Source: Candidatus Nanoarchaeia archaeon
Lineage (GTDB): Archaea > Nanobdellota > Nanobdellia > Woesearchaeales > SM23-78
DNA: 47,237 nt
Reading direction: 5' to 3'
Assembly: GCA_041479965.1 (NCBI GenBank)
Contig: JBGOZE010000002.1
Coordinates: 1-47,237 of the forward strand
The first letter of the stretch is position 1, and every line of letters starts with the position of its first letter. Position numbers and translations under genes: made by a program. The notes under the pieces were generated by a model. It was not told the DNA's origin, did no database searches, and saw only the letters and a list, made by a program, of their open reading frames with translations. Shown in pieces: positions 265-33,378 of the stretch.

Positions 265-381
265 CGCCCCGGCCGGGATTCGAACCCGGGTCGAAGCCTT
301 GCTGTGCATTCAACCATTAATGATGATTAATGATTATAATCCTCGACAGGGCTTCATGATAGGCCACTACACTACCAGGGC
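265..381 (-). tRNA. tRNA-Asp(GTC) with one roughly 44-nt intron at or near the canonical 37/38 position
   Basis: Minus strand reads GCCCTGG-TA-GTGT-AGTGGCCTA-TCAT-G-AAGCC-CTGTCGA-[intron]-GGCTT-CGAC-CCGGG-TTCGAAT-CCCGG-CCGGGGC-G. The acceptor pairs 7/7 with one G:U. The T-loop is TTCGAAT and the anticodon loop is CTGTCGA. Confidence 0.9.
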
Positions 382-16100: not shown

Positions 16101-19100
16101 CAGTCTGCGATTTCAGGCATATTAAATCCTGTGCAGCTCATTGCAGTCTTCTGAACACATAAACCACCACCGTTGCACTGGTCTTCTGCTGAGCAGAAGT
16201 TACCGTCATCACATGTTGTTGTGGAAGGCGCGAATCCATTTGCTGGGCACAGATCGCTTACTCCGTCACAACTCTCAGCAACATCACAGTCTCCTGCTGA
16301 TGCTCTGCAAACAGTTGTTGAAGGCTCATTATTAGTTAAGCAGCTTCCTGCTCCGTCACAAGCATCTGGTTTTGTGCAGGCAGTGCTAGCTGAGCTCCCA
16401 CAGCTAGTTCCTACTGTTTTGAACCCATTATCTGAACATACTCCTGCTGTGCATTTATCTTGATTTATGCATTCTGAGCCTGCATCACCGCAGTTGTTGC
16501 CATCAGTTGAGCAGACACTCCAACCACCAGCAGAACAAGTTTGAGTTCCAGCGCACACGCCTGAGCCGCAAGCTTGAGTTATGCTTTCATCAACAGAACC
16601 GTTACAATCATTATCCTTATTATCACAAGTTAATTCATCTAGTTCATAATAGGCAACAGATGAATAATCATCAATCCATCCATTTGAACCATCACAATGT
16701 TGAATAGAACCTAAACAAACACCATCCTGCATTGTATTTAATCCTGGAGTCAAACCATTGTCAGCTGAACCATCACAATCATTGTCATTTCCGTCACATA
16801 CTTCTGTTGCTGGCCCTACAGCAGTGCATCCTGTCCAACCACCAAGGTCTGTGCATGTTTCTGTCCCAAAGGCGCATTCTCCAATATCAACACCACACGG
16901 CTGGGATAAGGATTCAGAACCATCCAAGACTCCGTCACAATCATCATCAAAACCATTACAAGATTCTACATTGTTGCCTGTCGTGTCTGAACAAACTTGA
17001 TCACCAATACACTGATATGTTCCTTCCTGACATAAATCAGTATCAACACCATCACAAGCAGCACCAAACCATGCTTCGCTAGCACCGTCAGCAGTTGCAC
17101 CATTACAATCATCATCAAAACCATTACAGATCTCAGATGCACCAGGATGAATTGCAGCATTACCATCATTACAATCACCGTTATTTGCTACGTATCCTGC
17201 TGGCGCAACGCATGCTAGTTGTGTTACAAGAACATTTCCGAAGCCATCTGAGTCTGAGTCTTGGTAGAATGTTGTTTGGACTCCTTCATCAGTTTGTCCG
17301 TCGCAGTTATCATCTAATCCGTTGCAGGTTTCTGCTAAAGGCTCATAATTTGATGAACTGTCAAGCCAGATTTTCTCCCAGGGCTTTGCTGGATTTACAA
17401 GACATTCCTTAACATTATCTGAACATGCTCCTTGTATATTATCAGAAGGAATTGTTCCTAGGCCATCATCTATCTGTCCATTACAGTTATCATCTTTTGC
17501 GTTACATGTTTCTGGTAATGCTTTTCTTCCTGGAACATCAGCAGGAGTAGTAAAAGTCCAATAGCAGTTACAATTTGCAGCACTCAAACTACCGCCATCA
17601 TCAATTTTTCCATTACAATCATCATCTACTCCGTTGCACGTGACGTCATGACCGGCCGGGTTAACATTTACATCATTATCGTTGCAGTCATCATCATTTG
17701 AAACATATCCGGCAGGCTGGCTTACTGAATAAAGAGAATCGCTTGGGTCTCCGTAAGTATCGCCATCTCCATCATGATACCAAAGGGACTCGGTCTGGCA
17801 AGTTGCAGAGCATCCATCTGCAGAATTAGTATTGCCATCGTCGCATTGCTCACCAGATTCGATAAAGCCATTGCCGCATGAAGGTGCATCACAAGCGTCT
17901 CCAATTCCATCTCCATCCAAGTCAGCTTGGTCAGCATTAGAGACTAGCTGGCAATTATCTGCGCCATCTCCTACACCATCGCCATCATCATCAGAATCAC
18001 AAACATCTCCTTGTGCATCTCCATCAGTATCTAATTGATCTGCATTAGGATTCATAGGGCAATTATCCACGGCATTAGCAATTCCATCGCCATCAGTATC
18101 GCCATCGCAATCATCACCAATATTATCACTATCAATATCAGACTGTGTTGGATTGCCTATGAAATGACAATTGTCGTCGCAATTGGTGATCTGCAAGTGA
18201 TCACAGAGGTTGTTACCGATAATTCCGTCGCCATCACCGCTGTCTAAGACTCCGTCATTATCGTCGTCAGGGTCAACGCAGTCAGCTATTCCGTCTGGTT
18301 CATTGTCAGGGAATCCTTCATCAGTCTGTCCATCACAATCATTGTCTACGCCATCACAAACTTCTTCTGTTGGGACACAGCTTGCAGCATGCTGACATCC
18401 TAATGCTATATCACAGGTATCTGTTGTTTGTATATCATTATCATCACAATTCACTTGCGTATAGCTGCAGCTTATCATATTATTATTATCTATTGTACAT
18501 GCATCAGCATCATCACAACTTATTATATTAAACATACATCCTATTCCTGGAACGCATGAATCAGCAGTATTAGCATTGTTATCATTACACACAACATTTG
18601 TGTGTGTACAGACATTATTTACATTTGCATCTGTAGTGCATACATTATTATCATTACAATTTGTATAAACGCATCCTATCGAATTATCACATGTGTCTAT
18701 TGTGTCTGGATTGTTATCAAAACAACCTACTGGCAAACACATGCAAAAAGTTCCCGTCCAAGCACAATTTATACATGCATTAGGTGAAGGACAAGTACTA
18801 GCGGTATGCACGCATCCTGTTAAAGGATTGCAACTGTCTGATGTTCCAGGATTATTGTCGTCGCAGTTTATAGGTGTATTCATGCATCCAAATGGTCCCA
18901 GGTTAGCATCTGTAGTGCATGCATTGCCATCATCACAATTTGTTGGTGTATAGCAGTATATATTGCCTGTTGTCGGATGGTTTTGGCATGTTCCTAATCC
19001 ATTGTTGCACGAGGTATCTATGGCCATAGGAAAATGCTGGCATGTACCGAAGCAGGCATCAGTTGTGCATTCATTCCCGTCAGGACTGCAAGGACCACTA

Positions 19101-19300
19101 ACAGGCAAGTATCCCAAACATGTGTCGCCAATCCATCCGATGCATTCAGATCCACATTCTGCCTTTACAGCTGTTGCCAATAACATCAATCCAAATATAA
19201 AAACTAATATAAGATATGCTTTCTTCATTTTATTTCCCTCCAAACGTTTTAATGAGCGTGATATATTCTTATTATAGATATTACCAGTGTTTGTTTTCAT
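13151..19300 (-). CDS. giant secreted cysteine-rich repeat protein (about 2,025-2,049 aa), adhesin-like
   Basis: One uninterrupted ORF.
- Signal peptide [23 protein letters not shown] if translation starts at ATG 19228. Both ATG 19300 and ATG 19228 have a GGAGG about 8 nt upstream.
- N-terminal CxDxNxCTxDxC repeats.
- TSP3-like Ca-binding repeats ([35 protein letters not shown]).
- One [27 protein letters not shown] myxococcal-type repeat.
- More than 20 MopE-like motifs (DCNDxxxxxxPGAxExCNGxDDDCDG).
- One Cys-free domain of about 140 aa. Confidence 0.9.
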
Positions 19301-19900: not shown

Positions 19901-20758
19901 TTATTCTGTCTTGTACGTCAGGTTGACGCTGTTGGAGTAGATTGTCCTCTCCTTGCCTTTTCCTGTGTCAAAGGTCACTTTGGCGTCTGGAAGCCTGATG
20001 CCTCCGATGAGGGTAAGCTTGCTTTTCACCCTGTAGGATATGATTCTTTCTTCGTAGGGTTCCAAAGCGTCCATCTCCCATCTCGGCACTGTGCCTCTCT
20101 TGCCTTTGCCTATGCTTACTGGCTCCATGCTTCCCAGGTGAGTTGTCCTGTCTATCTCTGCGATGTGAGGCACGAAGTCTATCACTCGTAGGTTATGCAC
20201 TGGCTTCCTGGCCCTGTTCTTGAGGTAAAGCCTTACCTTCACTTCACTAAGGCCGTCCTTGGTCTGTCCCATTGGCTCTGCGTTCTTCATTATCACTATC
20301 GGGCTCCTCCAGACGTAGTAGAATATCACTGCCAATATCAATAGGATTATCACCAGCACGAGCATCCTGTAATCAGTGACCATGCTTCCGGCAAGGGTTT
20401 CCTGCGGGTCCAGGGTTTGGCGTATCACATAGTAGCTCTTGCCATCAAGCCCTTTCTCTTTCACAGCATCTGGCGTGAACTTGGTGAAGAGCCTCTTGAT
20501 GAGGTTCACAGAAAAGCTCTTCTCTGCCGTGGCTGGCTGGTTGCCGTTGTTGTAGATGGTGAAGCGCTCTTCTGTCCTGAATAAGAAGGTGTTTTTGGAT
20601 GATTTCTCCTTGAGGTCAGAGTAGCCTTGCACGTCGAATTCTGCTGATGCTTCTGCTACGTTCTTATCATTATAGTACAGTTGGAGTGTCAGGGTCTTGG
20701 TTCCTGGCTTGGTGAGCGGGTCCACAGAGAAAAGCACCTCGTTGGTCTTCTCTTCCAA
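19901..20758 (-). CDS. C-terminal half of a COG1470/CARDB-like surface protein (TM plus beta-sandwich domain); probably not an independent gene
   Basis: The track start is a TTG with no SD or TATA. It is in the same frame as the ORF at 20795-21355, separated only by one TAG (20795-20797) and 12 sense codons. The first internal ATG is more than 120 codons in. Confidence 0.5.
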   Translation of the reverse strand: MEEKTNEVLFSVDPLTKPGTKTLTLQLYYNDKNVAEASAEFDVQGYSDLKEKSSKNTFLFRTEERFTIYNNGNQPATAEKSFSVNLIKRLFTKFTPDAVKEKGLDGKSYYVIRQTLDPQETLAGSMVTDYRMLVLVIILLILAVIFYYVWRSPIVIMKNAEPMGQTKDGLSEVKVRLYLKNRARKPVHNLRVIDFVPHIAEIDRTTHLGSMEPVSIGKGKRGTVPRWEMDALEPYEERIISYRVKSKLTLIGGIRLPDAKVTFDTGKGKERTIYSNSVNLTYKTE

Positions 20759-20794: not shown

Positions 20795-21355
20795 CTATCC
20801 GTTCAGCACGACCTTGATATTGTCCAGCTCTCTTGGGTTCCTATTCTTAAGTATGAGGAGCACAGAGACTTTCTGCCTCGGGTCTATGGCGTTGTCAATT
20901 GATATTACTGGCGTAACAGTAGGGATGTATTCTCCAGGCCCAAGGTCAGGTGAGACCACGTAGATGGCGAATTTCTCCCTTTCTTCATAGTAGAAGCCTG
21001 TCTTCTCAGACTTAATCTTGACAGGTATGAAGTAGGTCTTCATCTCATCCACTGTGAGCTTGGGGTTGAATTCGAGAAGGAATTTCATTTCTCCATGGGC
21101 ATTGATGTAGCTTGATTGTGGGTCTATGTTGAGGACCCAGTTCACGTCTCTAGTGCTTATGGTGAAGTAATCATCATAGTCTGCTGTGTTGCTGATTATG
21201 AGCTCGAAATAGGCTGTCTCTTCCTTGGTGATGGTGTTATTGAGGACATTCACAGAATAGGCAAACGCTGACACTTGCGCAGCTGTAGAAATAATGATTA
21301 TCAATGCAGTCAAAAGTAAGATAGATAACCTGTATGCGGCTTTATTACCCACCAT
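20795..21355 (-). CDS. N-terminal half (signal peptide plus beta-sandwich domains) of the same surface protein, ended by an in-frame TAG
   Basis: Signal peptide MVGNKAAYRLSILLLTALIIIISTAAQVSA, then FELIISNTADYDDYF and LILKNRNPRELDNIKVVLNG strands. The ORF stops in the middle of a domain. Confidence 0.55.
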   Translation of the reverse strand: MVGNKAAYRLSILLLTALIIIISTAAQVSAFAYSVNVLNNTITKEETAYFELIISNTADYDDYFTISTRDVNWVLNIDPQSSYINAHGEMKFLLEFNPKLTVDEMKTYFIPVKIKSEKTGFYYEEREKFAIYVVSPDLGPGEYIPTVTPVISIDNAIDPRQKVSVLLILKNRNPRELDNIKVVLNG

Positions 21356-22180: not shown

Positions 22181-23185
22181 TTATTTTTTCTTCCGGGATT
22201 TCTTCTTGGCTGGCTTGGCTTTAGTCGTCCACACCTTCGTGGGGGTGGTCTTAGCTTTCACTTTCAGGTTGGTGAGGTATTTCTTCTCGTTCCAGTGGCT
22301 TTTCCAGGTTATAAGCACTGAGAGTATCATCACAATAACAGCTCCTATAAGAAATATCTCGACCAGGCCAGTGGTGCCAGTCTCTGCGCCAGACGATGAT
22401 TTGAATAGGTAGCCTGATGGTCCTGCTGCTGCAGCTTGTTTTGCAGTCGCTACAACTCTTGCTGTCATGAAAGCCTTATTATAGGAGATATCATCAAGGG
22501 TCAATTGCAGGTCGTCAGCGCCGTCATTGTTGAAGTCAATGTTTACGCTCTGGTACTGGTTCAATCTAATCCTCTTGCTAGCTGGTGTGGTTATCATGTC
22601 GACATACTCTATGCCTCTACTGTAGTCCTGGCTCACTCTGAGAACATCCAGGGAATAAGTGTTAAGGCCTTGCTTTACTTTTATGACATCATTAGGTATG
22701 AGGTTTTGCAGGTTCAGCACCAATCCCTCTTTGAGTTGGAATTCATAGAGGTTGCCTGGCCTGCGAGGCATCTTGGTTATCCTCAGATCAGGGTTTTTTA
22801 TCTCTCCTATAACTACTCTCCTGGTCTCTGACGATATCTTGGTGCCTTCAGTTGTCAAGCATTCTACGCGCCAATCATAGGAACCTGTCACTAGTTCTGC
22901 TGTGATCCTGTTGTTATAGGGTGAGAGCATGGCATTGGCTACAGCCACCAAATTATTATTGATTATCAGTGAGCACTCTTTTACATTGTAGGTGTCGCGA
23001 TAGGAGTAGATGAAAGTTATCATTGGACTGGCAGTCTGCGTGTTAGGAGCAGGCGATACCAAGCTTACCTCTGATGATGAGCTTATGACAAAGCCTGTTA
23101 TTGAAGCATTGCTGGTTATGACGAAGTATATCAGTCCAAGGGCGAGCAATCCAAAAGCTATCTCTGTTCCTGTTGATTTCTTCAT
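22181..23185 (-). CDS. secreted, C-terminally anchored surface protein (paralogue of the upstream gene)
   Basis: A signal/anchor segment, an N-terminal two-Cys Ig-like domain (...VKECSLIINNN...GSYDWRVECLT...), a second domain (YSLDVLRV...IDFNNDGADDLQLTLDD), then a TM and a Lys-rich tail. ATGA overlap with the upstream gene. Confidence 0.7.
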   Translation of the reverse strand: MKKSTGTEIAFGLLALGLIYFVITSNASITGFVISSSSEVSLVSPAPNTQTASPMITFIYSYRDTYNVKECSLIINNNLVAVANAMLSPYNNRITAELVTGSYDWRVECLTTEGTKISSETRRVVIGEIKNPDLRITKMPRRPGNLYEFQLKEGLVLNLQNLIPNDVIKVKQGLNTYSLDVLRVSQDYSRGIEYVDMITTPASKRIRLNQYQSVNIDFNNDGADDLQLTLDDISYNKAFMTARVVATAKQAAAAGPSGYLFKSSSGAETGTTGLVEIFLIGAVIVMILSVLITWKSHWNEKKYLTNLKVKAKTTPTKVWTTKAKPAKKKSRKKK

Positions 23186-24315
23186 CTTCTCACTCTTCCT
23201 CCAGTGCTTTTTATGATATCGAATTTTTCATCTAGAGGAGCTGCTTCTTCCTCTTCATTAAGGGTCTCTGGCGGCAGCTCTTTCTTCGCCTCTTTCTTAG
23301 GAGTTTTTGCTTCTTTCTTCTTAGGGCTTTGCTTTTCAGAGCCTTTTCTTTTATTCATCACCACCAAGATTATCATTATTATGATGATTAGCACCAATAG
23401 CGCAGGCAGGATTATCGTGAGGATGCTTGCCTCTTTTGGTTCTGCTTCTTGCTCGGGCTGAGGCTGGGTTGAGGGCTTCTCTTCTCCTGTCTCTTGTCCT
23501 GCTGGCTGCTCTGCTGGCGTGGTTGTTCCTGTTCCTTGCTCAACAGGTTCCTCCTCTGGAGGCGTCACAACAGGCGGAGTCTCTGGTGTTGTTGGAGTGA
23601 CAGGCGCAGTTGTCCCAGGATAGGGCTTGACCACAAAGTAAGCATTGATGTTTCTCTCAACATCTTTGAGCTGCAATTCAACTTCTATGACTTCATCATC
23701 GTTGAAGTCAAACTTCACAGAATCTCCTACGAGCATATGGCTGATCTTTCCGCTGTTCCTGTCCCTGACATCCACAAAATAAGTATCAAGATAAGCTCCC
23801 ATCTTTAGCACATCGAGGTAGTATGATTTTCCTCCGAGCTTTATGTTGATGTCCTCTCCTCCTTTCATCGCTGGCAAGGTCACCTCTTCCTGGCCAAGGG
23901 CGATGGTGAAGACATAGCTTCTCAAACCAGTAGAGTAATAGACTATAGTGTATCCTTCCTTGATGGATTGGCCAGCATCAACCTTGAAGTTCCTGCTTTC
24001 AGACACCAGGCTGCTCATTTCAGTGTCATAGCACTGGATGTTCCATGTGTGAGAGCCATCTGCGACAGCTAGTGTAAACTTATTGTTATTCAGTTTGATG
24101 AGTGAGTTCATGGTCTTCTGGACAGCTCCGTCAATGACCAATGAGCAGTTCAGCACATTAGGTTCCATGTCAAAGCCGAATATGAAGTCAGTGGTCGTAG
24201 TGGTTATGACTGCTCCATCACCAGGCGTCATCAGGACTATGGCTGCTGACACAGACAAAGCTAGCATTGAGAAAAGTAGCAGAACAAATGTAATTACACA
24301 TAGTTGTTTTCTCAT
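23182..24315 (-). CDS. secreted, C-terminally anchored surface protein with Pro/Thr/Glu-rich stalk
   Basis: Signal peptide MRKQLCVITFVLLLFSMLALSVSAA. Same two-domain layout as the paralogue (...LNCSLVIDGA...GSHTWNIQCYD...; YYLDVLKM...FDFNDDEVIEVELQLKD). Then a PT/E-rich linker, a TM and a charged tail. Confidence 0.7.
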   Translation of the reverse strand: MRKQLCVITFVLLLFSMLALSVSAAIVLMTPGDGAVITTTTTDFIFGFDMEPNVLNCSLVIDGAVQKTMNSLIKLNNNKFTLAVADGSHTWNIQCYDTEMSSLVSESRNFKVDAGQSIKEGYTIVYYSTGLRSYVFTIALGQEEVTLPAMKGGEDINIKLGGKSYYLDVLKMGAYLDTYFVDVRDRNSGKISHMLVGDSVKFDFNDDEVIEVELQLKDVERNINAYFVVKPYPGTTAPVTPTTPETPPVVTPPEEEPVEQGTGTTTPAEQPAGQETGEEKPSTQPQPEQEAEPKEASILTIILPALLVLIIIIMIILVVMNKRKGSEKQSPKKKEAKTPKKEAKKELPPETLNEEEEAAPLDEKFDIIKSTGGRVRR

Positions 24316-24455: not shown

Positions 24456-25424
24456 TTATTTCTCTCTTGTTTTCATTTGCTCAATATGCGATCTTTCCTG
24501 CCATTTGCTGTACGGTATTGCTATGGTTGTAAGAGCATCTTCATTCAATTTCAAGATTTGACCTAAGGCATTATAGTCTGGTTTTTTTTGCGTGATGACT
24601 TCCAAGATTACGTCTCGGGTCTTTTCAGGCGATAGCTCAGGCGAGTATCTTGCTAAGTATGCTCCACTCAGGTTAGCGAGCACTCTTGATTTATCATCAG
24701 GCAGAATGTCTGCACAATCTTTTGATACATAGCCTATCTGAGGGGTTCCCCCAACTCCTCCATTCAGAGTGGACACCGAAAAAGCATTAATTGCATAAAA
24801 AGCCAATTCCTCTTTACTCAATGTCGCAGCGTTTCTGCCTTGAAGCTCTTGAGTAAAATACATGTTGGCGCCGTCAGTTCCTGACCCTATCTCCTGATGA
24901 GATAAAAATAATTCCATGTAACCAGGTTCACGGCCACCATTGCATACATTTGCATGCCTCATTTTGTTGGCTATTTTATCAAAAGATGCTATGATGAATG
25001 TTGCAATTCCATACCATTGGCTTTTACGCCCTTCATATTTATTCATCAAGTCTCGTGTTTCTGATTTCACCAATTTCTTTTTTTGCCGCTCATCTAAAAA
25101 TGCCGCGGCCTTTTTTGCTATCTCTTCCTTTTCATAATCTAGAAACATTTTATCAGAATGATTACTTCGCTGTTTTGCAAGATTATAAACCGCTTCAAGA
25201 TATGATTCAAAAGTAGTGTGAGGAAAAGAATCTGCATTCTTCAATACCTCATCATTGATGTTTGCGTCTCCTGCTGCCAGGATAATGCCGTGAGAATTTC
25301 CATTTTGAATCTTTGCTCTTTTAATAGCAAAATCAGTAAGTCTAGCACCACCTGAACCGGATTGCCTTGAATCACTAATCAAGAAGGTTTCAAGCCCGTT
25401 AGTAAGATAGATTCCTACAGTCAT
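24456..25424 (-). CDS. HslV/proteasome-beta-like Ntn-hydrolase homologue with a helical insertion and C-terminal extension
   Basis: - It starts MTVGIY..., so Thr would be exposed after Met removal.
- ISDSR places an Asp at mature position 17.
- AIKRAKI supplies a Lys near position 33.
- ILAAGDA matches the HslV AGFAGG region.
- EIGSGTDGANMY matches the proteasome/HslV GSG(x)xxA block after an insertion of roughly 50 aa or more.
- Own TATA (complement of about 25450-25465). Confidence 0.55.
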   Translation of the reverse strand: MTVGIYLTNGLETFLISDSRQSGSGGARLTDFAIKRAKIQNGNSHGIILAAGDANINDEVLKNADSFPHTTFESYLEAVYNLAKQRSNHSDKMFLDYEKEEIAKKAAAFLDERQKKKLVKSETRDLMNKYEGRKSQWYGIATFIIASFDKIANKMRHANVCNGGREPGYMELFLSHQEIGSGTDGANMYFTQELQGRNAATLSKEELAFYAINAFSVSTLNGGVGGTPQIGYVSKDCADILPDDKSRVLANLSGAYLARYSPELSPEKTRDVILEVITQKKPDYNALGQILKLNEDALTTIAIPYSKWQERSHIEQMKTREK

Positions 25425-25505
25425 TTTATCCTGTTTATGTCAGAACTAGTATATAAATCTTTCGTTTATTTAACCACTAAAGAGTGACTACAAACCGAAA
25501 GGTTT

Positions 25506-27575
25506 TCACTCCCTGCTTATCCTGCTCTCGTGGCCGTCCTTCCTTATCCTGATGATGTGGTCCACGAATCCTTCCATCTTGGCCTCGTGGCTTACTATGA
25601 TGGTCTGCTTCACATGGGTCTGGTTGAGCACTTCTCGAACTCGGTCAAGCTGCTCTGAAGAAAAGCCTTCTGTGGGCTCATCAAGGATTATCAGGTCCCT
25701 GGTCCTTATGGTGCTCAAAAAGTCATTGATGACTTTGTTCAAGGCAAGCCTGTAGGCTAAGGCTACGCTGGTCTTCTCTCCTCCTGAAAGGTTGTCTATC
25801 CAGGTCTCATAGCCGTTCTGCTCAATCACAGGAGCGAAGTTATCGTCAAGCCTGATGCTTATGGTCTCGTCCTCTATGAGCGTGCTGAACCATTCCTGGA
25901 AGAAAGCATTGAACTCGCTGTATATCATGGCCAGGATGTTCTTCTCTATGAGGTCTGTCAGGCTGACAAAGTGCTCTTCCATCCAGCTCTTGAGGGAGTT
26001 GAGCCTGTTGAGATGCTTCTCACCCTCTCTCATCCTATCAATCTCTTTTTTCAGCCTCTCTGCTATCTGGCTGAGGGCATTAAGGCGTGTCTTGCTCTCG
26101 AGCGCTGACTTCTCAAGCTTGTATTTCTCCTCTCTCCTGGTCTCAAGCTCTTTTTTCGCTTTCTCAAAATCATTTTTCTTATCCTTCTGTTTCTCAAGCT
26201 TCTCATCAATCTCAGCGATCATGGAATTGGCTTTCTGCAAGTTCTCCTTGAGCTCCTTGAGCTCGTGCTCCAATAGTTTCTTGCGTTCCTTTTTCTCCTC
26301 TAAAGCTTCGAACTTGGCCTTCTTAGCCTCCACTTCCCGCTCCCCTTTCAGGTATTGCTCAATCTCTTCCTCGATAGCTTCTCTTTTCTGCCTGAACTTC
26401 TTCTCGAACTCATCCAGCTTTTCCAGGTTGTTCTCGCAGTTCTTGACCACCACGTGCTCTCGCCCTGTCACCTCGCTGATGTGCTCAGGAGTCACTTTCT
26501 GCTTGCAAGTAGGGCACTCATCGAGCTTTGAAATCTCATTTATCATCTTCAAGGAAGCATTCTTCCTAGTGCTGTTCTCTGCTCTCCTAGTGTTGATGTC
26601 AGAGAGCTGCTTCTCAAGGCTTTTCAGCTCAGCCTTCTTCTTCTCAACCAATTGCTTGATCTCATCTGCTTTTCTCAGGTCAAATCCTTCAAGGCCTCTG
26701 AGCAGCTCATCTAGCAGAGGGATTATTTTTTTCATCTCAGACTCGCTCCTCTCAAGCTGCCTGGTCAATGAGAACAGTTCGCTCTTGCTCACAGCAGCTT
26801 CTTTCTCAAGCTTCTTCATCTCTTCAAGCTCCTGCTCTAATTTCTCAAATCCATTCTGTGCATCTTCAAATGCATGCTTGACCTTAGCTAGTTCAGAGTC
26901 GCTTTGCTCAAGCTTTTTCTTGAGATCAAACGCCTGCTTGTCATAGTCCTCGAGCTCTTGCTTCTTGTCAGGAAGAGTCTCAAGCTTTCCTTCAAGCACA
27001 TTGGCTCTGGCTTTCAGCTCTCTAATATATAATAAGGAGTTCTCCTTGACTCTCTTGTACTTGTCGATGTTGAACAAGCGCCTCAAGATGTCCAATCGCT
27101 CTTCCCTGTTCTCATACAATATCTTCTTCATCTCTTCCTGAGGCGTGAACACTGTGTAACGGAATATCAAGGACTTTGACTTGGTAAGAAGCTCCTCAGG
27201 GTAGCCTATCAATTCAAGGACTTTTGCCTTCAGCTCTTGAGGCGTTCCTTCAAAAGAAACATTGTTGACTATCAGCTCTCCGCTTTCCTGGGCAACACCT
27301 GCAAGAGTCCTCTTGAGCGAGCGCTTGATGAAGAGCTTGTCATTGCCAAGAGTGAAGTGAAGCTCAACAGAGCCCTGGCTTGCTCCGTGCCTGAGAAGAG
27401 TGCTTCCGCTCACCAATCCCTTCATGATGCCGAAGATGGCGAACTCCATAGCCAACAGGATGCTGGTCTTGCCACCGCCGATGTCACCTGAGAGAAGCAC
27501 GCTGCCTGGAGGGAACTCAATGGTCGCATCTACGTATGAGCGAATATTCCTCAATCTTAAAGAACTGATAATCAT
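25506..27575 (-). CDS. rad50: Rad50/SbcC-like SMC-family ATPase with central zinc hook (short form, about 689 aa)
   Basis: N-terminus MIISSLRLRNIRSY..., Walker A GDIGGGKTS, long heptad-rich E/K coiled coil, CPTC hook at nt 26505-26516 (mid-protein), signature LSGGEKTSVALAYRLAL, Walker B LIILDEPTEGF and H-loop VSHE. Start taken at the internal ATG at 27575, which has its own TATA (complement TTATTTATAA) about 30 nt upstream. Confidence 0.8.
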   Translation of the reverse strand: MIISSLRLRNIRSYVDATIEFPPGSVLLSGDIGGGKTSILLAMEFAIFGIMKGLVSGSTLLRHGASQGSVELHFTLGNDKLFIKRSLKRTLAGVAQESGELIVNNVSFEGTPQELKAKVLELIGYPEELLTKSKSLIFRYTVFTPQEEMKKILYENREERLDILRRLFNIDKYKRVKENSLLYIRELKARANVLEGKLETLPDKKQELEDYDKQAFDLKKKLEQSDSELAKVKHAFEDAQNGFEKLEQELEEMKKLEKEAAVSKSELFSLTRQLERSESEMKKIIPLLDELLRGLEGFDLRKADEIKQLVEKKKAELKSLEKQLSDINTRRAENSTRKNASLKMINEISKLDECPTCKQKVTPEHISEVTGREHVVVKNCENNLEKLDEFEKKFRQKREAIEEEIEQYLKGEREVEAKKAKFEALEEKKERKKLLEHELKELKENLQKANSMIAEIDEKLEKQKDKKNDFEKAKKELETRREEKYKLEKSALESKTRLNALSQIAERLKKEIDRMREGEKHLNRLNSLKSWMEEHFVSLTDLIEKNILAMIYSEFNAFFQEWFSTLIEDETISIRLDDNFAPVIEQNGYETWIDNLSGGEKTSVALAYRLALNKVINDFLSTIRTRDLIILDEPTEGFSSEQLDRVREVLNQTHVKQTIIVSHEAKMEGFVDHIIRIRKDGHESRISRE

Positions 27576-27631
27576 AATTAAGAGGGAAAAAAAATGGTTA
27601 TAAATAATTTGTTGTTTTGGGAATAGCATCC

Positions 27632-28873
27632 CTATTTCTTCAGGAGCTTCAGAGGCACATCTGAGCGTACAGTGTCCTTGTAGCCAACATCATAGTTCTC
27701 CCTCAAGTAAGAGTCAATCACTTCGCAGCCATTCTTGTAATTATCATCCCACTCCTGCTTTTTCTGCGCAATGAAGGTTTCTGGAGCGATTCCAAGCCTG
27801 TTAGCCTCACAAGTAAGCCTCTGTATTGTTGGTCCGTACGACGCCTTTAATGGGCCAACATGTACTCTGAGAGCAAAGTTCTCAATGTGCCTATCCATTT
27901 TCTCAAGGTAAGGCCAGAGCGTTTCAGGGTTAGGGTTGTACATCTGGGGATAGATGTCAAATCCAGCCTTCACGAACCTCTTGATGGAATAGAGCTGCTC
28001 TTGCATGCTAGGATTGGACTGCACATTGCTTTTGAGGTTCTCAGCATCACAGCCCTTCAAGGCAGTAAGAACCTTGACAGGATGCTCTGCAAGCTTCTCA
28101 AGGATGTGCTTCTCATAAATCCCTTCCTTCTCAAACCTCTTGACAACCGAGCCAGTTGATAGGTTGCTGTCAATCTGACCTACCAAGTCCAATCCTCGAT
28201 TGCTTATCTCACGCCACACATCCAATACATAATCAAGCACAATAGTCGGCTCTCCTCCTGAAATCCTAAGCACCTTGATGTCAAGGTCAAAGCCAAACTC
28301 TTTATTATAGAAACTCCTTATCTTGTCTTTTGCAGACAGCATGCTATCAATTATTTCATCAACACCAAGCCAGGCCTTTCCAGGGGCTATCTTCCCATCA
28401 TTGCTCTTATCATCAACAAAGCAATACCAGCACCCGCCAGTCTCTGTTCCGTCATGGAAATTGCAGCCAGCTACCTGGGCTATGAAAGGAGTGTTGTAAT
28501 CAGAAGCTCTCCGGATATCAAATCCTTGGTTATGCTTGAACCATAAAGGGAAATCAAACTCCTGGCGCTTAATCAGCTCCTCGATTTCGCTGCTTGGCAT
28601 CTGCCTGATGTCCTTGAAAGGCATCTTGTACTCAACCGCTGCCTTAGGGTCAATGTCCTTGATATTGAACTTAGCCCTGAAAACATACTCTCCAGTTTTA
28701 ATGTTAGGCATGAGGTCAATCACCTTGGAAGTGTCCTTGCCCTGCAAAGTATTGGAGAAGTCTGTCACCAGCACTTTGTCGTCTTTCCTTAAAGTCTTCC
28801 TCAACTCAAGAGCCCTGCTTATCGCATCAGTCTTCATAATGCCCCCCCGCAAATGTTTAGCTGAATAACTCAC
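27632..28873 (-). CDS. radical-SAM-like protein with atypical spaced cluster motif and N-terminal extra domain
   Basis: GCNFHDGTETGGCWYCF gives C-x10-C-x2-C (nt 28421-28465) rather than CxxxCxxC. A downstream ISGGEPT glycine-rich SAM motif is present. The roughly 130 aa N-terminal region is not recognised. An alternative start is ATG 28837 (MKTDAISR...). Confidence 0.6.
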   Translation of the reverse strand: MSYSAKHLRGGIMKTDAISRALELRKTLRKDDKVLVTDFSNTLQGKDTSKVIDLMPNIKTGEYVFRAKFNIKDIDPKAAVEYKMPFKDIRQMPSSEIEELIKRQEFDFPLWFKHNQGFDIRRASDYNTPFIAQVAGCNFHDGTETGGCWYCFVDDKSNDGKIAPGKAWLGVDEIIDSMLSAKDKIRSFYNKEFGFDLDIKVLRISGGEPTIVLDYVLDVWREISNRGLDLVGQIDSNLSTGSVVKRFEKEGIYEKHILEKLAEHPVKVLTALKGCDAENLKSNVQSNPSMQEQLYSIKRFVKAGFDIYPQMYNPNPETLWPYLEKMDRHIENFALRVHVGPLKASYGPTIQRLTCEANRLGIAPETFIAQKKQEWDDNYKNGCEVIDSYLRENYDVGYKDTVRSDVPLKLLKK

Positions 28874-28959
28874 CTAAAGAATCAGTCTTCAGGGCTCACC
28901 CCTCTTTTTGAGATGAAGATTCCAGATATTACTATATATATCTTTCTTTTTTAAAAAAA

Positions 28960-28969
28960 CTTTATAAAG
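28960..28969 (+). promoter_or_regulatory. TATA box for tRNA-Gln
   Basis: CTTTATAAAG is centred about 27 nt upstream of the tRNA 5' end at 28992. Confidence 0.55.
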
Positions 28970-28991
28970 CCAGTAAGAATAATAATCTTCA

Positions 28992-29182
28992 CAGCCCCGT
29001 GGTGTAGCGGCCAAGCATACCGGACTTTGGAAGTGCAGGAAGAGAAGCCTGTGCTGAACACATCCGTTGACCCAGGTTCAAAAGAGATTTTTGCGAAAAA
29101 TCTCGTAAAAAGCAGGCGACATTCGCCTACGGCGAAGTCCCCTTACGAAAAGCAAGATCTCATGAAACTCCTGGCGGGGCTA
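28992..29182 (+). tRNA. tRNA-Gln(TTG) with two introns (about 31 nt canonical 37/38; about 87 nt in the T-loop near 59/60)
   Basis: AGCCCCG-TG-GTGT-AGCGGCCAA-GCAT-A-CCGGA-CTTTGGA-[intron]-TCCGT-TGAC-CCAGG-TTCAAA-[intron]-T-CCTGG-CGGGGCT-A. The spliced length is 73 nt. A1:U72 is typical of archaeal tRNA-Gln. There is one C27:U43 mismatch, so a Pro(TGG) reading cannot be fully excluded. Confidence 0.75.
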
Positions 29183-29293
29183 TTAACCAATGCGTGACTT
29201 GGGTGGACTACATTTTCCACCCAGCTCACTTTTTCTAGTTTTATCAAAAAGAGTCAAAATGTGTTCCTTGACTGTCACGCACTCGGCGTTCGC

Positions 29294-29309
29294 CCTGGCA
29301 GGGCTATTA
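29294..29309 (+). repeat. pseudo-copy 1 of the tRNA-Gln 3' end
   Basis: CCTGGCAGGGCTATTA against the tRNA 3' end CCTGGCGGGGCTATTA (29170-29185), 1 mismatch, same orientation. Confidence 0.7.
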
Positions 29310-29338
29310 TGATTTTTCTTTAAAGGTGAAAAAATAAA

Positions 29339-29752
29339 ATGATAAAGGAAAAATTAAAGCAAGATCAAGGGTTATTGGTGCTCTGGGCTGCTAAGTGCGC
29401 TGAGCATGTGCTTCCCTATTTCGAGAAAGAATATCCTCGAGACGATCGACCTAGCAAAGCCATTGAAGCAGGGCGCGCTTGGGTGCGTGGTGAGATAAAA
29501 ATGAATGAAGTTCGTGCTGCTGCAATTGCAGCTCACGCTGCTGCTCGTGACTGCGAGCATTCTGGGGCTCGTGCGGCCGCGCGTGCATCTGGTCACGCTG
29601 CTGCAACTGCTCATGTTGTCACTCACGCCCCTCATGCTGCCAATTATGCTGTTACTGCCGCCGAAGCTGAAGGTATCGTTGGAGAGCGCGAGTGGCAATT
29701 TCGACATCTTTCAAAACGCCTTCGGCCAGTAATGAAAAAGTTAGTGAGATAA
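29339..29752 (+). CDS. Ala/His-rich helical repeat protein; resembles a bacterial family I recall being annotated as putative (Imm5-like) immunity protein
   Basis: 137 aa: ...LWAAKCAEHVLPYFEKEYPRDDRPSKAIEAGRAWVRGEIKMNEVRAAAIAAHAAARD...ARAAARASGHAAATAHVVTHAPHAANYAV. SD AGGTGA about 10 nt upstream. It is visibly more GC-rich than its surroundings. The family assignment is from memory and unverified. Confidence 0.6.
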   Translation: MIKEKLKQDQGLLVLWAAKCAEHVLPYFEKEYPRDDRPSKAIEAGRAWVRGEIKMNEVRAAAIAAHAAARDCEHSGARAAARASGHAAATAHVVTHAPHAANYAVTAAEAEGIVGEREWQFRHLSKRLRPVMKKLVR

Positions 29753-29755
29753 GAA

Positions 29756-29772
29756 TTTGGCAGGGCTACTTA
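29756..29772 (+). repeat. pseudo-copy 2 of the tRNA-Gln 3' end
   Basis: TTTGGCAGGGCTACTTA shares the core TGGC(A)GGGCTA with copy 1 and with the tRNA. It lies directly after the stop of the gene at 29339-29752. Confidence 0.55.
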
Positions 29773-29850
29773 TTTTTTTCTTGCCAAGAAAAGAAAATGT
29801 TTTTATATTAGAGTGGTTAAGCAGGCTTGTTTTGGGAGGGTGCCGGGTGT

Positions 29851-31188
29851 ATGACTGATAATCTTTTTGACGTAGCTATCATCGGCAGCGGTCCTGCGGG
29901 CTTGTGGGCAGCTGATGAGCTGATAAGTTCTAACCCTAAGCTAAAAGTAGCTATCTTCGAGAAGAACACTTTCTCATCTGGCGGCATGATAAATGATTGC
30001 AAGCTCAACCTGACTCCTAAGATAGGCATGGATTTGGATGAGCTCAAGGTTTCTGAAGCAGAGGCTTGGGACTTTATCCAGAAGATTGATGACAAATTCC
30101 TGCAATACGGAGCAGACCCTGTTGTTTCTGGCACTAATGAGCACGAAATTAAGAAATGGGTTGACAGGGCTAAGAGGTGCGATGCTGAGCTGATTGTGTG
30201 CAAGCAAAGGCACATAGGAACTGACAAGGCAGGGCTTATTGTCAAGCAGTACAAGGAGGAGCTTGAGTCCCAGGGAATCAAGTTCCTGGTTAACACTCCG
30301 GTTGATGATATCCAGAAAGAAGGAGATATGTTCAAGCTAAAATCAGGCTTAAATGAGTTCCAAGCCAAGTTTGTCATCTGCGCTCCTGGCAGGGACGGAG
30401 CTTACTGGCTGAGAGACCTGGCGAAAAAATTAGGCATCAATTTCAGGTGGAGCGCAGTTGATGTAGGAGTAAGGATAGAGGTGCTGAGAGAAGTGTATGA
30501 CCCGATAACTGATGTCATCTATGACCCTAAGTTCATCTTCAACACCAAGTGCCACGGAGACAAGGTCAGGACTTTCTGCACCAACCCTGGCGGAAGAGTC
30601 AGATTGGAGCCTGCCAATGGCAAAGGCTTCTTCCTGATAAACGGCGATGCTTTGAAGGACAAGAAGACTCAGAACACTAATTTCGCGATACTGAACACCA
30701 TTGATTTAACCCAGCCTTACGGAGACACCACTGAGATGGCGCGCTCAATAGCCATTGAAACCAACAGGCTAGGAGGGGGCAAGCCCATAATCCAGAGGAT
30801 GGGAGACTTCCTTAACGGCAAGAGGTCAAAGATGGAAACTTTCTATGACAAGAGCAAAGGCTATGACCAGGTAGAGCCTACTCTCAAGCCTGGCTTGCAG
30901 GTAGTTCCCGGAGACATCAACCTGGCTTACAGGGCGAGGATCATGCAGAACCTTGCAGAAGCCATTGACAGGCTTGACAGGATTGTTCCTGGAGTAGCTC
31001 ATCCTGCGACCCTGATTTATGCTCCTGAGATCAAGTTCTATGACACCAAGTACAAGACCAACAGGTTCCTTGAGACCAACCTTGAGAACTTCTTTGTCGC
31101 AGGGGACGGAGCTGGTAAGAGCAGGGGAATAGTCGGAGCAGCCATGACTGGGATGCTCGCAGCCAGAGGAATTCTTAGCAAGCTTTAA
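29851..31188 (+). CDS. FAD-dependent dehydrogenase (COG2509-like)
   Basis: N-terminal dinucleotide fold DVAIIGSGPAGLWAA and C-terminal FVAGDGAGKSRGIVGAAMTG. Start taken at ATG 29851 (the track starts 24 nt earlier). Confidence 0.75.
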   Translation: MTDNLFDVAIIGSGPAGLWAADELISSNPKLKVAIFEKNTFSSGGMINDCKLNLTPKIGMDLDELKVSEAEAWDFIQKIDDKFLQYGADPVVSGTNEHEIKKWVDRAKRCDAELIVCKQRHIGTDKAGLIVKQYKEELESQGIKFLVNTPVDDIQKEGDMFKLKSGLNEFQAKFVICAPGRDGAYWLRDLAKKLGINFRWSAVDVGVRIEVLREVYDPITDVIYDPKFIFNTKCHGDKVRTFCTNPGGRVRLEPANGKGFFLINGDALKDKKTQNTNFAILNTIDLTQPYGDTTEMARSIAIETNRLGGGKPIIQRMGDFLNGKRSKMETFYDKSKGYDQVEPTLKPGLQVVPGDINLAYRARIMQNLAEAIDRLDRIVPGVAHPATLIYAPEIKFYDTKYKTNRFLETNLENFFVAGDGAGKSRGIVGAAMTGMLAARGILSKL

Positions 31189-33237: not shown

Positions 33238-33378
33238 AATGACAGAAAATGCTTGCTTTCTTATCAATGTTTCGCAAGGCAAGCAAGGCAAAGTACACGA
33301 TTAGGGTTTGCAATTTAATAAAATTTATAAATGCGCTCGAAAAGAAAATGCAGATACAATTTTTATGAGGTGGTTCAT

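What the first reader, a model, noticed from the sequence alone, without database searches (positions are those of the whole stretch)
24456..25424. Orphan HslV/proteasome-beta-like Ntn-hydrolase with no propeptide, an internal insertion and a roughly 100 aa C-terminal extension
The protein starts MT-VGIYL, so removal of Met would expose a Thr1 nucleophile, as in HslV.
- ISDSR puts Asp at mature position 17.
- A Lys follows near position 33 (AIKRAKI).
- ILAAGDA aligns with the HslV AGFAGG segment.
- EIGSGTDGANMY matches the GSG block that carries Ser129 in proteasomes.

The helical insertion (aa about 85-135) and the long C-terminal tail are not found in canonical archaeal PsmB or in HslV. This may therefore be a new branch of self-compartmentalising, or monomeric, Thr-proteases.
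Basis: inference. Interest (0 to 1): 0.68.

Follow-up and report, generated by a model that had tools for sequence, protein, structure and literature searches.

The report
Unclassified proteasome-like Thr protease, DPANN archaea
This gene encodes a very divergent relative of the proteasome's catalytic subunit. It keeps the full catalytic residue set, has no propeptide, and carries two extra helical modules. It represents an unannotated protein family of tiny DPANN archaea whose function is still unknown.

Summary
The 322-aa ORF at 24456-25424 (-) is real and has its own TATA box. It cannot have a propeptide, because an in-frame stop lies 6 codons upstream of the ATG.

It belongs to a family of at least 144 clusters at 50% identity. 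All members are unannotated, and the named ones come from Nanoarchaeota/Woesearchaeota MAGs. Across 109 full-length members:
- Thr2 is present in 105 (Ser in 3).
- Asp18, Gly52 and Gly180 are invariant.
- Lys35 is present in 108.

This is the proteasome Thr1/Asp17/Lys33/Gly47/Gly128 pattern.

Sequence searches barely see the relationship: no Pfam, NCBIfam or PDB hit for the window protein, and hhalign to PsmB gives E 0.003. A confident AlphaFold model (pLDDT 89.8) nevertheless matches 20S subunits at Foldseek probability 1.0, with 461 PDB hits.

Two features are specific to the family:
- The H1/H2 helix pair is lengthened into a hairpin whose tip varies in length.
- After H5 comes a four-helix C-terminal bundle with no PDB counterpart.

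It is not PsmB, HslV, Anbu or connectase. Membership in the 2021 PHI/ACC/WPH groups could not be tested by sequence. No gene neighbour is conserved.

It is a new variant of a known kind, of moderate interest.

The parts
24456..25424 (-). Complete ORF, 322 aa plus stop: proteasome-like Ntn-hydrolase homologue
   Evidence: ORF; family; fold
25450..25457 (-). Archaeal TATA-box-like TTTATATA centred about 30 nt upstream of the ATG. It implies the gene has its own promoter and a near-leaderless mRNA.
   Evidence: read directly from the sequence; functional role inferred from the known archaeal promoter consensus
25419..25421 (-). Thr2 codon. Thr2 becomes Thr1, the predicted N-terminal nucleophile, once the initiator Met is removed.
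   Evidence: T in 105 and S in 3 of 109 members; stop 6 codons upstream excludes a propeptide
25266..25421 (-). Strands S1-S5 (residues 2-53). Carries D18 (=Asp17), the family motif R28-x-x-D31, K35 (=Lys33) and G52 (=Gly47, oxyanion hole).
   Evidence: secondary structure; conservation
25020..25265 (-). Enlarged H1/H2 element (residues 54-135): a short helix at 54-62, then a long helical hairpin at 72-107 and 112-135. This is the least conserved region, and its tip tolerates insertions of up to 43 aa in relatives.
   Evidence: helices; helix 112-135 aligns with H2 of PsmB; conservation 0.29-0.30; insertions after residues 109 and 116
24699..25019 (-). Strands S6-S11 with helices H3/H4 (residues 136-242). 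Includes G180-S181-G182 (=Gly128-Ser129-Gly130) and N221-G-G-V-G-G-T-P228 (=the Asp166...Gly170 loop).
   Evidence: hhalign register; conservation
24459..24698 (-). H5 (243-257, carrying the conserved N251-L-S-G-A255 motif) followed by a family-specific four-helix C-terminal bundle (258-322, with conserved P304, W308 and position 313).
   Evidence: folds on its own at pLDDT 96.9; no significant PDB match, best E 0.65; conservation

Best explanation
The gene encodes a stand-alone, propeptide-less N-terminal-nucleophile (Ntn) hydrolase with the proteasome-beta/HslV fold. It belongs to a previously unannotated family that, as far as named sources show, is confined to DPANN archaea of the Nanoarchaeota/Woesearchaeota (Nanobdellota) type.

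**Proposed mechanism**
1. Methionine aminopeptidase removes Met1. This is inferred: Thr is a permissive second residue.
2. That exposes Thr1, whose hydroxyl is the nucleophile and whose free alpha-amine, together with Lys33 (here K35), acts as proton shuttle.
3. Asp17 (D18) positions the lysine.
4. The backbone NH of Gly47 (G52) forms the oxyanion hole.
5. S181 and N221 take the structural roles of Ser129 and Asp166.

**What is shown and what is inferred**
- Shown: the fold, the conservation of these residues, the lack of a propeptide, the two family-specific modules, and the absence of a conserved partner gene.
- Inferred: catalytic activity, and that it acts on peptide bonds.

The enzyme is made in an already 'mature' form and has no linked unfoldase. 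I therefore infer that the elongated, length-variable H1/H2 hairpin and the conserved C-terminal helical bundle restrict access to the active site. They could do this by substrate recognition or by an unusual oligomer. On this view the enzyme is a specific peptidase or transpeptidase, working alongside the canonical proteasome rather than replacing it.
For: **The gene and its family**
- ORF and start codon.
- Family of 14 clusters at 90% identity and 144 clusters at 50% identity, nearly all 300-350 aa and starting MT(V/I)G.
- Catalytic pattern invariant or near-invariant in 109 members.

**The fold**
- AF2 model pLDDT 89.8, with the S1-S5 / H1-H2 / S6-S9 / H3-H4 / S10-S11 / H5 order of proteasome subunits.
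- Foldseek PDB: the top 50 are all 20S subunits at probability 1.0, TM(target) 0.5-0.74, with 461 hits at E<=1e-3.
- Foldseek viral library: phage HslV/proteasome-like proteins.

**Weak but in-register sequence signal**
- Pfam PF00227 is the most recurrent family, hit by 6 of 109 members, best E 2.4e-4.
- PDB 'Proteasome subunit beta' at E 0.35 in the correct register.
- hhalign to a PsmB profile: E 0.0027, aligning H2, S6-S11, GSG, and N221/G225 to D166/G170.

**Context**
- The C-terminal bundle is an autonomous, conserved domain.
- Its own TATA box.
- Housekeeping-type, non-conserved neighbourhoods.
- A preprint reports a canonical proteasome subunit as a single-copy core gene across the phylum (bioRxiv 10.64898/2026.05.13.725050).
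Against: - Sequence-level homology to any characterised proteasome-family member is below significance. The window protein has no Pfam, NCBIfam or PDB sequence hit, and hhalign probability is only 11%.
- The assignment therefore rests on a predicted structure.
- Ser169 is replaced by an invariant Val (V224), and Asp166 mostly by Asn.
- No activity, oligomeric state or substrate is known for any member.
- Isolated proteasome subunits without their ring are inactive (stated in PMC8665760), so activity may depend on an assembly that has not been demonstrated.
Confidence: 0.72

Rival explanations
1. It is simply the organism's canonical 20S proteasome beta subunit (PsmB), highly diverged as is usual for DPANN genomes. 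On this view it assembles with PsmA into a normal 20S barrel.
For: - The best structural matches are 20S beta subunits.
- The catalytic residues are all present.
- Nanobdellota core proteins are reported to be exceptionally divergent.
- No other psmB is seen in the 47-kb window.
Against: - No member reaches the Pfam PF00227 gathering score, and the window protein gets no hit at all.
- There is no NCBIfam PsmB hit.
- The H1/H2 element is about 37 aa longer, and a roughly 65-aa extra C-terminal domain is present.
- A recognisable 'proteasome subunit' and 'proteasome endopeptidase' are already reported as phylum-wide markers. Those would be detectable by standard models, which this family is not.
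- The window is only about 47 kb, so the absence of psmB here says little.
Confidence: 0.07
2. It is a connectase-like enzyme: a monomeric Thr1 transpeptidase that ligates or recombines a specific target protein rather than degrading proteins.
For: It shares with connectase no propeptide, an N-terminal Thr/Ser, an archaeal host, an extra C-terminal domain, no AAA+ partner, and very low sequence similarity to proteasome subunits.
Against: - Connectase lacks H1/H2 and has a two-helix insertion between S3 and S4 (PMC7980362; PMC8665760). This protein has an enlarged H1/H2 and only a short loop at 21-30.
- The connectase C-terminal domain is a beta-barrel, whereas here it is all-helical.
- The known connectase substrate, MtrA, belongs to methanogens, while the named carriers here are DPANN MAGs.
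- DUF2121 does not appear among the recurrent Pfam hits.
Confidence: 0.12
3. It is the effector of a defence or DNA-repair module, working together with the Rad50/LmuB-like SMC ATPase encoded immediately upstream (and with the radical-SAM gene). This would be analogous to Lamassu LmuA-LmuB.
For: - The genes are on the same strand with an 81-bp gap to the 707-aa ATPase.
- The ATPase matches a PADLOC LmuB model end to end, E 1.6e-37.
- The adjacency is kept in the close relative L003.
Against: - The adjacency is absent in the other ten loci fetched: L001, L002, L004-L008 and the three loci of the divergent branch.
- The gene has its own TATA box.
- It has no PADLOC hit of its own.
- The ATPase scores better as Rad50, E 3.6e-46, and carries a CPTC zinc-hook motif, so it is more likely a housekeeping Rad50.
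- The radical-SAM gene lies in a block that is missing from L003.
Confidence: 0.04
4. It is a catalytically dead, alpha-subunit-like scaffold that keeps the fold for structural or regulatory purposes.
For: - Foldseek hits include alpha subunits nearly as high as beta subunits.
- Ser169 is replaced by Val, and Asp166 mostly by Asn.
Against: - Alpha subunits lack Thr1 and carry an N-terminal H0 extension. Here nothing precedes Thr.
- Thr/Asp/Lys/Gly are under near-absolute conservation across members only 20-40% identical. That is hard to explain without catalysis.
Confidence: 0.05

Closest known systems
Archaeal 20S proteasome beta subunit (PsmB; MEROPS T1A; Pfam PF00227)
   Same: - The alpha-beta-beta-alpha Ntn sandwich, with the same order of S1-S11 and H1-H5.
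- Thr1/Asp17/Lys33/Gly47 and Gly128-Ser129-Gly130 equivalents.
- It is the best structural match.
   Different: - No propeptide.
- H1/H2 extended by about 37 aa into a protruding hairpin.
- An extra four-helix C-terminal bundle.
- Ser169 replaced by Val, and Asp166 by Asn.
- Sequence similarity below the Pfam and NCBIfam thresholds.
- No evidence for a PsmA partner or a ring.
HslV (ClpQ)
   Same: Thr directly after the initiator Met, the same catalytic set, and the GSG motif. Phage HslV-like proteins are among the viral structural hits.
   Different: - HslV is bacterial, about 175 aa, compact, without H5 or insertions, and is encoded with HslU.
- This protein is archaeal and 322 aa, and no AAA+ gene neighbour was seen in any locus.
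- hhalign to E. coli HslV gives E 0.13 over 35 columns only.
Connectase (DUF2121; PDB 6ZVZ; Fuchs et al. 2021, PMC7980362)
   Same: An archaeal, stand-alone, propeptide-less Thr/Ser-1 enzyme with an additional C-terminal domain and extreme sequence divergence from proteasome subunits.
   Different: - Connectase lacks H1/H2, has Hins1/Hins2 between S3 and S4, has an optional beta-barrel C-domain, and occurs in methanogens.
- This family has an enlarged H1/H2, no S3/S4 helices and a helical C-domain, and its named hosts are DPANN.
Uncharacterised proteasome homologues of Fuchs, Alva & Lupas 2021 (PMC8665760), especially PHI, ACC and WPH (the ones recorded in 'Other Archaea'), and PMI-3/4, RPC/DAH (insertions or C-terminal domains)
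   Same: - The same concept: very divergent, propeptide-less proteasome-like proteins with conserved active-site residues, insertions near H1/H2 and/or extra C-terminal domains.
- No conserved gene context and no AAA+ partner.
   Different: [quoted passage not shown] Here the H2-S6 loop is only about 5 residues and the helices themselves are lengthened.
- ACC and WPH are described with a long coiled-coil H5. Here H5 is 15 residues and is followed by a globular bundle.
- PHI and WPH connect tightly to proteasome clusters by BLAST, whereas this family does not even reach Pfam thresholds.

Membership tests
Proteasome-like Ntn hydrolases (superfamily of 20S alpha/beta, HslV, Anbu, BPH, connectase) | Four-layer alpha-beta-beta-alpha fold with an S1-S11 core | tested here: met
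   AF2 model at pLDDT 89.8. Foldseek probability 1.0 to 20S subunits, with 461 PDB hits at E<=1e-3. This rests on a predicted structure, not an experimental one.
Proteasome-like Ntn hydrolases (superfamily of 20S alpha/beta, HslV, Anbu, BPH, connectase) | N-terminal Thr (or Ser) nucleophile exposed at residue 1 of the mature chain | tested here: met
   The protein starts M-T. Across 109 members this position is T in 105 and S in 3. No upstream start codon is possible. Removal of Met is inferred, not shown.
Proteasome-like Ntn hydrolases (superfamily of 20S alpha/beta, HslV, Anbu, BPH, connectase) | Asp17, Lys33 and the Gly47 oxyanion hole, each on its equivalent secondary-structure element | tested here: met
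   D18 109/109 at the end of S2, K35 108/109 before S4, and G52 109/109 at the end of S5. Inter-atomic distances were not measurable because no coordinates were available.
Proteasome-like Ntn hydrolases (superfamily of 20S alpha/beta, HslV, Anbu, BPH, connectase) | Significant sequence or profile similarity to a recognised member | tested here: inconclusive
   PF00227 hits 6 of 109 members, best E 2.4e-4, all below the gathering score. hhalign to a PsmB profile gives E 0.0027 and probability 11%. The PDB profile search gives E 0.35.
Proteasome-like Ntn hydrolases (superfamily of 20S alpha/beta, HslV, Anbu, BPH, connectase) | Thr1-dependent peptide-bond hydrolysis or transfer | not testable with these tools
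   This needs biochemistry.
Canonical archaeal PsmB | Matches the Pfam PF00227 or NCBIfam PsmB models above their cut-offs | tested here: not met
   The window protein has no hit, and no family member reaches the threshold.
Canonical archaeal PsmB | About 200-aa mature chain without large insertions, usually made with a propeptide | tested here: not met
   The protein is 322 aa, has no propeptide, an extended H1/H2 and an extra C-terminal bundle.
HslV | Compact chain of about 175 aa lacking H5, encoded with the AAA+ partner HslU | tested here: not met
   The protein is 322 aa and has H5 plus a bundle. No AAA+ neighbour is present in the window or in L001-L011. hhalign to E. coli HslV gives E 0.13.
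Connectase | Absence of H1/H2 and presence of a two-helix insertion between S3 and S4 | tested here: not met
   The model has helices at 54-62, 72-107 and 112-135 at the H1/H2 site, and no helix between residues 19 and 35. The defining features are taken from PMC7980362 and PMC8665760.
Connectase | Monomeric ligase acting on a KDPGA-type motif of MtrA in methanogens | not testable with these tools
   The named carriers are Nanoarchaeota/Woesearchaeota MAGs. Oligomeric state and substrate are unknown.
Anbu / ACC / WPH | Long C-terminal H5 that forms a coiled coil | tested here: not met
   H5 is 15 residues (243-257) and is followed by four short helices that pack into a bundle. The feature is as described in PMC8665760.
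PHI / PMI-3 / PMI-4 (Fuchs et al. 2021) | Long insertion after H2, at the pore-loop site | tested here: not met
   The loop between H2 (112-135) and S6 (141-149) is about 5 residues. The extra length lies within and between H1 and H2, with the variable tip after residues 109 and 116.
Any of the 22 subfamilies of Fuchs et al. 2021 | Clusters by sequence with that subfamily (CLANS or HHpred against the authors' alignments) | not testable with these tools
The paper's supplement holds no sequences.

The most novel reading that the evidence does not exclude
The family is a new functional type of proteasome homologue specific to DPANN archaea: a constitutively mature Thr1 enzyme. Its protruding, length-variable helical hairpin and novel C-terminal bundle would either recognise one specific protein target, making it a connectase-like sequence-specific peptidase or ligase with a new recognition tag. 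Alternatively, they would build a quaternary structure not yet seen, such as a self-capped ring that needs no ATPase. Either outcome would add a new branch point to proteasome evolution, and the first could yield a new protein-engineering tool.
Probability: 0.15. Interest if true: 0.8.

Novelty: new variant of a known kind. Interest (0 to 1): 0.5.

Why it matters
The proteasome family is a model for how a simple Ntn hydrolase became a self-compartmentalising machine. Its odd members have already produced surprises, such as Anbu's split ring and connectase's ligase activity, the latter now used as a laboratory tool.

This family is an uncatalogued, reasonably large branch in the smallest-genome archaea (at least 144 clusters at 50% identity). 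It keeps every catalytic residue and adds two modules with no known counterpart. Retention of an extra proteasome-like enzyme in such reduced genomes argues for a specific, selected function.

It gives a clean target for structure, oligomer and substrate studies, and a new data point for reconstructing proteasome evolution. It is not a conceptual surprise, though. The 2021 survey that described 22 new proteasome homologues explicitly predicted that more such families exist.

Tried and rejected
1. **Direct sequence searches.** Pfam, NCBIfam, PADLOC and PDB searches of the window protein and of the 14-member profile gave nothing usable.
2. **Finding related loci.** A six-member sub-alignment worked but returned only 6 loci.
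3. **Profile search of the 5.8-billion-protein set.** This recovered only family members and no bridge to named families.
4. **Last homologue search.** I spent it on A. fulgidus PsmB to build a beta-subunit profile. Only near-identical Archaeoglobales sequences were listed, so the profile had Neff of about 2 and the HH comparison stayed weak.
5. **HTH idea for the C-terminal domain.** The lead was a weak 'CAP repeat' match and an HTH_26 hit in one member. I rejected it: the isolated domain model has no significant PDB match, and HTH proteins appear only at E>2.
6. **Operon idea with the radical-SAM and Rad50-like genes.** Rejected. The rSAM gene lies in a block absent from the syntenic relative L003, and the Rad50 adjacency is absent from all more distant loci.
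7. **Lamassu-effector idea.** Rejected for the same reason, and because the ATPase looks like a zinc-hook Rad50.
8. **Canonical psmA/psmB.** I looked in the window and all fetched loci and found none, but the sampled DNA is far too small to conclude absence.
9. **Not achievable here.** I could not obtain model coordinates, so no catalytic distances were measured. I could not obtain sequences of PHI, ACC, WPH, Anbu, BPH or connectase for direct profile comparison.
Full report

The ORF lies at 24456..25424 on the minus strand and encodes 322 aa beginning MTVGIYLTNGLETFLISDSR. Reading upstream on the coding strand, the frame is ...*HKQDK-M. An in-frame stop sits six codons before the ATG and no ATG/GTG/TTG lies between. 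The protein therefore cannot be made with a propeptide.

A TTTATATA element (25457-25450) is centred about 30 nt upstream of the ATG. It matches the archaeal TATA-box consensus, which is established knowledge. Its function is inferred: it suggests the gene has its own promoter and a near-leaderless mRNA, independent of the gene 81 bp upstream.

**2. Is it a real, conserved gene?**

- A search of 5.8 billion proteins found 13 homologues besides the window protein itself, at 28-42% identity.
- An exhaustive HMMER scan of 1.84 billion cluster representatives found 144 clusters at E<=1e-3 and 68 at E<=1e-30. Nearly all are 300-350 aa and match from residue 1.
- Of 113 near-full-length members, 78 start MTVG and almost all of the rest start MT or MS.
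- Every member is unannotated. The only source names are 'hypothetical protein' from Nanoarchaeota MAGs, MCK4589687.1 and MEK6845125.1.
- Species-representative genomes that carry the family are labelled Woesearchaeota, Nanoarchaeota, 'uncultured archaeon' or 'uncultured Methanosarcinales'. I did not verify the last label.
- The window itself is archaeal, with TFIIB and SepF. It is syntenic with a Woesearchaeota MAG at 47-81% protein identity.

**3. The catalytic pattern.**

Conservation in 109 full-length members that are only 20-42% identical to the window protein:

| Position | Conservation | Proteasome equivalent |
|---|---|---|
| T2 | 105 T, 3 S | Thr1 |
| D18 | 109/109 | Asp17 |
| K35 | 108/109 | Lys33 |
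| G52 | 109/109 | Gly47 |
| G180 | 109/109 | Gly128 |
| S181 | 93 | Ser129 |
| G182 | 105 | Gly130 |
| N221 | 93 N, 4 D | Asp166 |
| V224-G225-G226 | at least 106 each | Ser169-Gly170-Gly171 |
| P228 | 105 | none |

With Met1 removed, these are the Thr1/Asp17/Lys33/Gly47/Gly128-Ser129-Gly130 positions that define proteasome-like active sites (definition from PMC8665760). An ungapped alignment from the N-terminus puts D18 on residue 17 of the PDB-verified Thermoplasma beta subunit (sequence verified).

Further family-specific conserved positions are R28, D149, N251-L-S-G-A255, P304, W308 and position 313.

**4. The fold.**

Sequence methods see almost nothing:
- There is no Pfam or NCBIfam hit, and no meaningful PDB hit, for the window protein or the 14-member profile.
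- With all 109 members scanned, Pfam Proteasome (PF00227) is the most recurrent family. It is hit by only 6 members, best E 2.4e-4.
- The 109-member profile touches PDB 'Proteasome subunit beta' at E 0.35 in the correct register.
- hhalign against a PsmB profile gives E 0.0027 and probability 11%. The profile was built from Archaeoglobales sequences plus the verified Thermoplasma beta.
- That alignment places helix 112-135 on H2, 141-149 on S6, G180-S-G on G128-S129-G130, N221 on D166 and G225 on G170. The single-sequence comparison gives the same register.

Structure prediction is decisive:
- The AlphaFold2 model built from the family alignment has mean pLDDT 89.8 and pTM 0.86. Its element order is that of a proteasome subunit.
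- Foldseek against the PDB returns 461 hits at E<=1e-3. The top 50 are all 20S subunits from archaea, actinobacteria and eukaryotes, at probability 1.0 and TM (target-normalised) up to 0.74.
- In the viral library the best hits are phage HslV/proteasome-like proteins.

One limitation remains. The tools do not expose coordinates, so I could not measure the geometry of the catalytic residues. Their placement rests on topological equivalence and the HH register.

**5. What is different from known members.**

(a) *No propeptide*. This is as in most non-canonical homologues.

(b) *The H1/H2 element spans residues 54-135.* It comprises a short helix at 54-62 and a long hairpin at 72-107 and 112-135. 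From the oxyanion Gly to S6 there are 89 residues, against 50 in the Thermoplasma beta subunit, counted from the sequences. This is the least conserved region, with mean top-residue frequency 0.29-0.30 against 0.52-0.57 in the core. The family's length variation is concentrated at the hairpin tip: 28 instances of insertions of up to 43 aa after residues 109 and 116. That fits a solvent-exposed protrusion.

(c) *After H5 (243-257) come four more helices (258-322).* The segment 241-322 folds on its own at pLDDT 96.9 and has no significant match in the PDB, the best being E 0.65 at probability 0.28. Weak HTH-like sequence hints are therefore not supported.

(d) *Ser169 is an invariant Val, and Asp166 is mostly Asn*.

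**6. Genomic context.**

In the window the gene follows a 707-aa SMC-type ATPase and a radical-SAM gene on the same strand.
- The ATPase is best described as a short Rad50. It matches NCBIfam Rad50 at E 3.6e-46 and carries a CPTC zinc-hook motif visible. It also matches a PADLOC LmuB model at E 1.6e-37.
- The Rad50 adjacency is kept only in the close relative L003.
- The radical-SAM, Imm5-like and FAD-oxidoreductase genes form a block that L003 lacks.
- In the other ten loci fetched (L001, L002, L004-L008 and the three of the divergent branch) the neighbours differ. They are mostly housekeeping genes: TFIIB, Spt5, FtsZ, ribosomal proteins, RIO1, GINS and methyltransferases.
- An all-against-all BLAST of neighbours finds no conserved partner.
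- No AAA+ unfoldase gene is adjacent anywhere.

This mirrors what Fuchs et al. reported for their new homologues: no informative context and no AAA+ partner.

No psmA or psmB is present in the window or the fetched loci. A 2026 preprint on 208 complete Nanobdellota genomes lists a proteasome subunit among the phylum-wide single-copy core genes. The family is therefore most likely an additional homologue, not a replacement. This is an inference and was not tested for this genome.

**7. Most likely mechanism.**

- *Shown:* a proteasome-type Ntn fold (predicted), a fully conserved catalytic set, a mature N-terminus encoded directly after Met, two family-specific modules, and a stand-alone gene.
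- *Inferred from established knowledge of Ntn hydrolases and methionine aminopeptidase specificity:* Met1 is removed. Thr1 O-gamma then attacks a peptide carbonyl, with its own alpha-amine and Lys33 as proton shuttle. Asp17 orients the lysine, and Gly47 NH stabilises the oxyanion.
- *Further inference:* the enzyme is born 'mature' and has no dedicated unfoldase. Uncontrolled proteolysis must then be prevented either by high substrate specificity, as in connectase, or by an assembly that sequesters the site. The variable hairpin sits at the position that mediates inter-subunit contacts in proteasomes. Together with the conserved C-terminal bundle, it is the obvious candidate for that control.

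I put about 0.7 on 'active Thr1 peptidase or transpeptidase of a distinct subfamily'. I cannot discriminate a ring from a monomer, or hydrolase from ligase chemistry.

**8. Comparison with known families.**

- *Canonical PsmB:* no. It fails the Pfam and NCBIfam models, has extra modules and lacks a propeptide.
- *HslV:* no. It differs in size, H5, host domain and the lack of HslU, and hhalign gives E 0.13.
- *Connectase:* no. Connectase lacks H1/H2, has an S3/S4 two-helix insertion and a beta-barrel C-domain. All three features are contrary to the model.
- *Anbu, ACC, WPH type:* no. H5 here is short, whereas those families have a long coiled-coil H5.
- *PHI, PMI-3, PMI-4:* by description these do not fit. 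Their insertion follows H2, whereas here the H2-S6 loop is about 5 residues.

I could not retrieve the sequences or alignments of the 22 subfamilies of Fuchs et al.. Sequence membership in one of them therefore remains untested. The two named NCBI members carry accession prefixes (MCK, MEK) that I believe post-date that survey's database. That dating is my own recollection and was not checked.

**9. Verdict.**

The interpretation, a new branch of proteasome/HslV-like Thr hydrolases with no propeptide, an internal helical elaboration and a C-terminal extension, is supported with corrected boundaries.

It is a new variant of a known kind: a distinct, unannotated, DPANN-associated subfamily of a superfamily already known to be rich in such variants. 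Interest is moderate, at 0.5. It is a good target for structural and biochemical work, but not conceptually unexpected after the 2021 survey.

Noticed in passing
window 24456-25424 versus L003 10001-10957: In the syntenic Woesearchaeota relative L003 the flanking orthologues are 47-81% identical, but the Ntn-like protein is only 38% identical. The window copy is also consistently more distant from all other family members (34-39%) than the L003 copy is (38-47%). It deviates at otherwise conserved sites, for example the family's N at position 313 is H here. The window lineage's copy therefore seems to be evolving faster.
   Followed up: partly
window 27632-31188: A block of three genes lies between the Rad50-like and Metallophos genes and is absent at the same place in L003, so it looks like an insertion. 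The genes are a radical-SAM protein (413 aa, weak viperin/activase-like hits only), an Imm5-like immunity protein (PF21805, E 1e-41) and an FAD-dependent oxidoreductase.
   Followed up: partly
window 25506-27629 (-): A short (707 aa) Rad50-type SMC ATPase with a CPTC zinc-hook motif. It scores as Rad50 (E 3.6e-46), as an archaea-specific SMC-related protein (E 3.8e-43), and end to end against a Lamassu LmuB model (E 1.6e-37). It reaches none of the NCBIfam curated cut-offs (PADLOC models have none). A 237-aa Metallophos (Mre11-like?) gene lies nearby at 31465-32178.
   Followed up: partly
window 22181-23185 and 23182-24315 (-): Two paralogous predicted surface proteins lie directly downstream of the finding, overlapping each other by 4 nt. 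Each has a signal-peptide-like N-terminus, a Pro/Thr/Glu-rich linker, a C-terminal transmembrane helix and a Lys-rich tail. Neither has a Pfam domain. The pair is conserved in L003 at 47-51% identity.
   Followed up: no
window 13151-19300 (-): A giant 2049-aa ORF with seven MopE-type putative metal-binding motifs (PF11617, E 2e-67), thrombospondin type-3 repeats and DUF4215. It is probably a large extracellular or adhesion protein.
   Followed up: no
window 19901-20758 and 20795-21355 (-): Two adjacent ORFs both match a single 492-aa ORF of L003 (14751-16229) at 58-67% identity. The gene therefore appears split in the window, by a frameshift, a stop codon or an assembly error.
   Followed up: no
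window 265-381 (-): Rfam finds a full-length tRNA match spanning 117 nt that ARAGORN did not call. This is probably an intron-containing archaeal tRNA.
   Followed up: no
window 33331-34533 (+): The S-adenosylmethionine synthetase is of the bacterial/eukaryotic MetK type (PF00438, PF02772 and PF02773, E down to 1e-69) in an otherwise archaeal genome. From my own knowledge, most archaea use a distinct archaeal-type enzyme, so this may be a horizontal acquisition.
   Followed up: no
window 6778-7701 (+); also next to the family gene in the P0151 contig, and at the edge of L010: A Fic/DOC-family protein that matches the PADLOC SoFic model (E 5e-40). Fic genes also occur within 1-6 kb of the Ntn-like gene in two loci of the divergent branch. 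That is probably coincidental.
   Followed up: no
L010 and L011 5278-5937; P0151 contig 5302-5961; window 46062-46793: In the divergent branch of the family, a 219-aa Methyltransf_30 (PF05430) gene sits immediately upstream on the same strand (40-64 bp gap), with a RIO1 kinase gene downstream. The window has a Methyltransf_30 gene too, but 21 kb away. L001 has a different methyltransferase directly upstream. This could be a weak recurrent association.
   Followed up: partly
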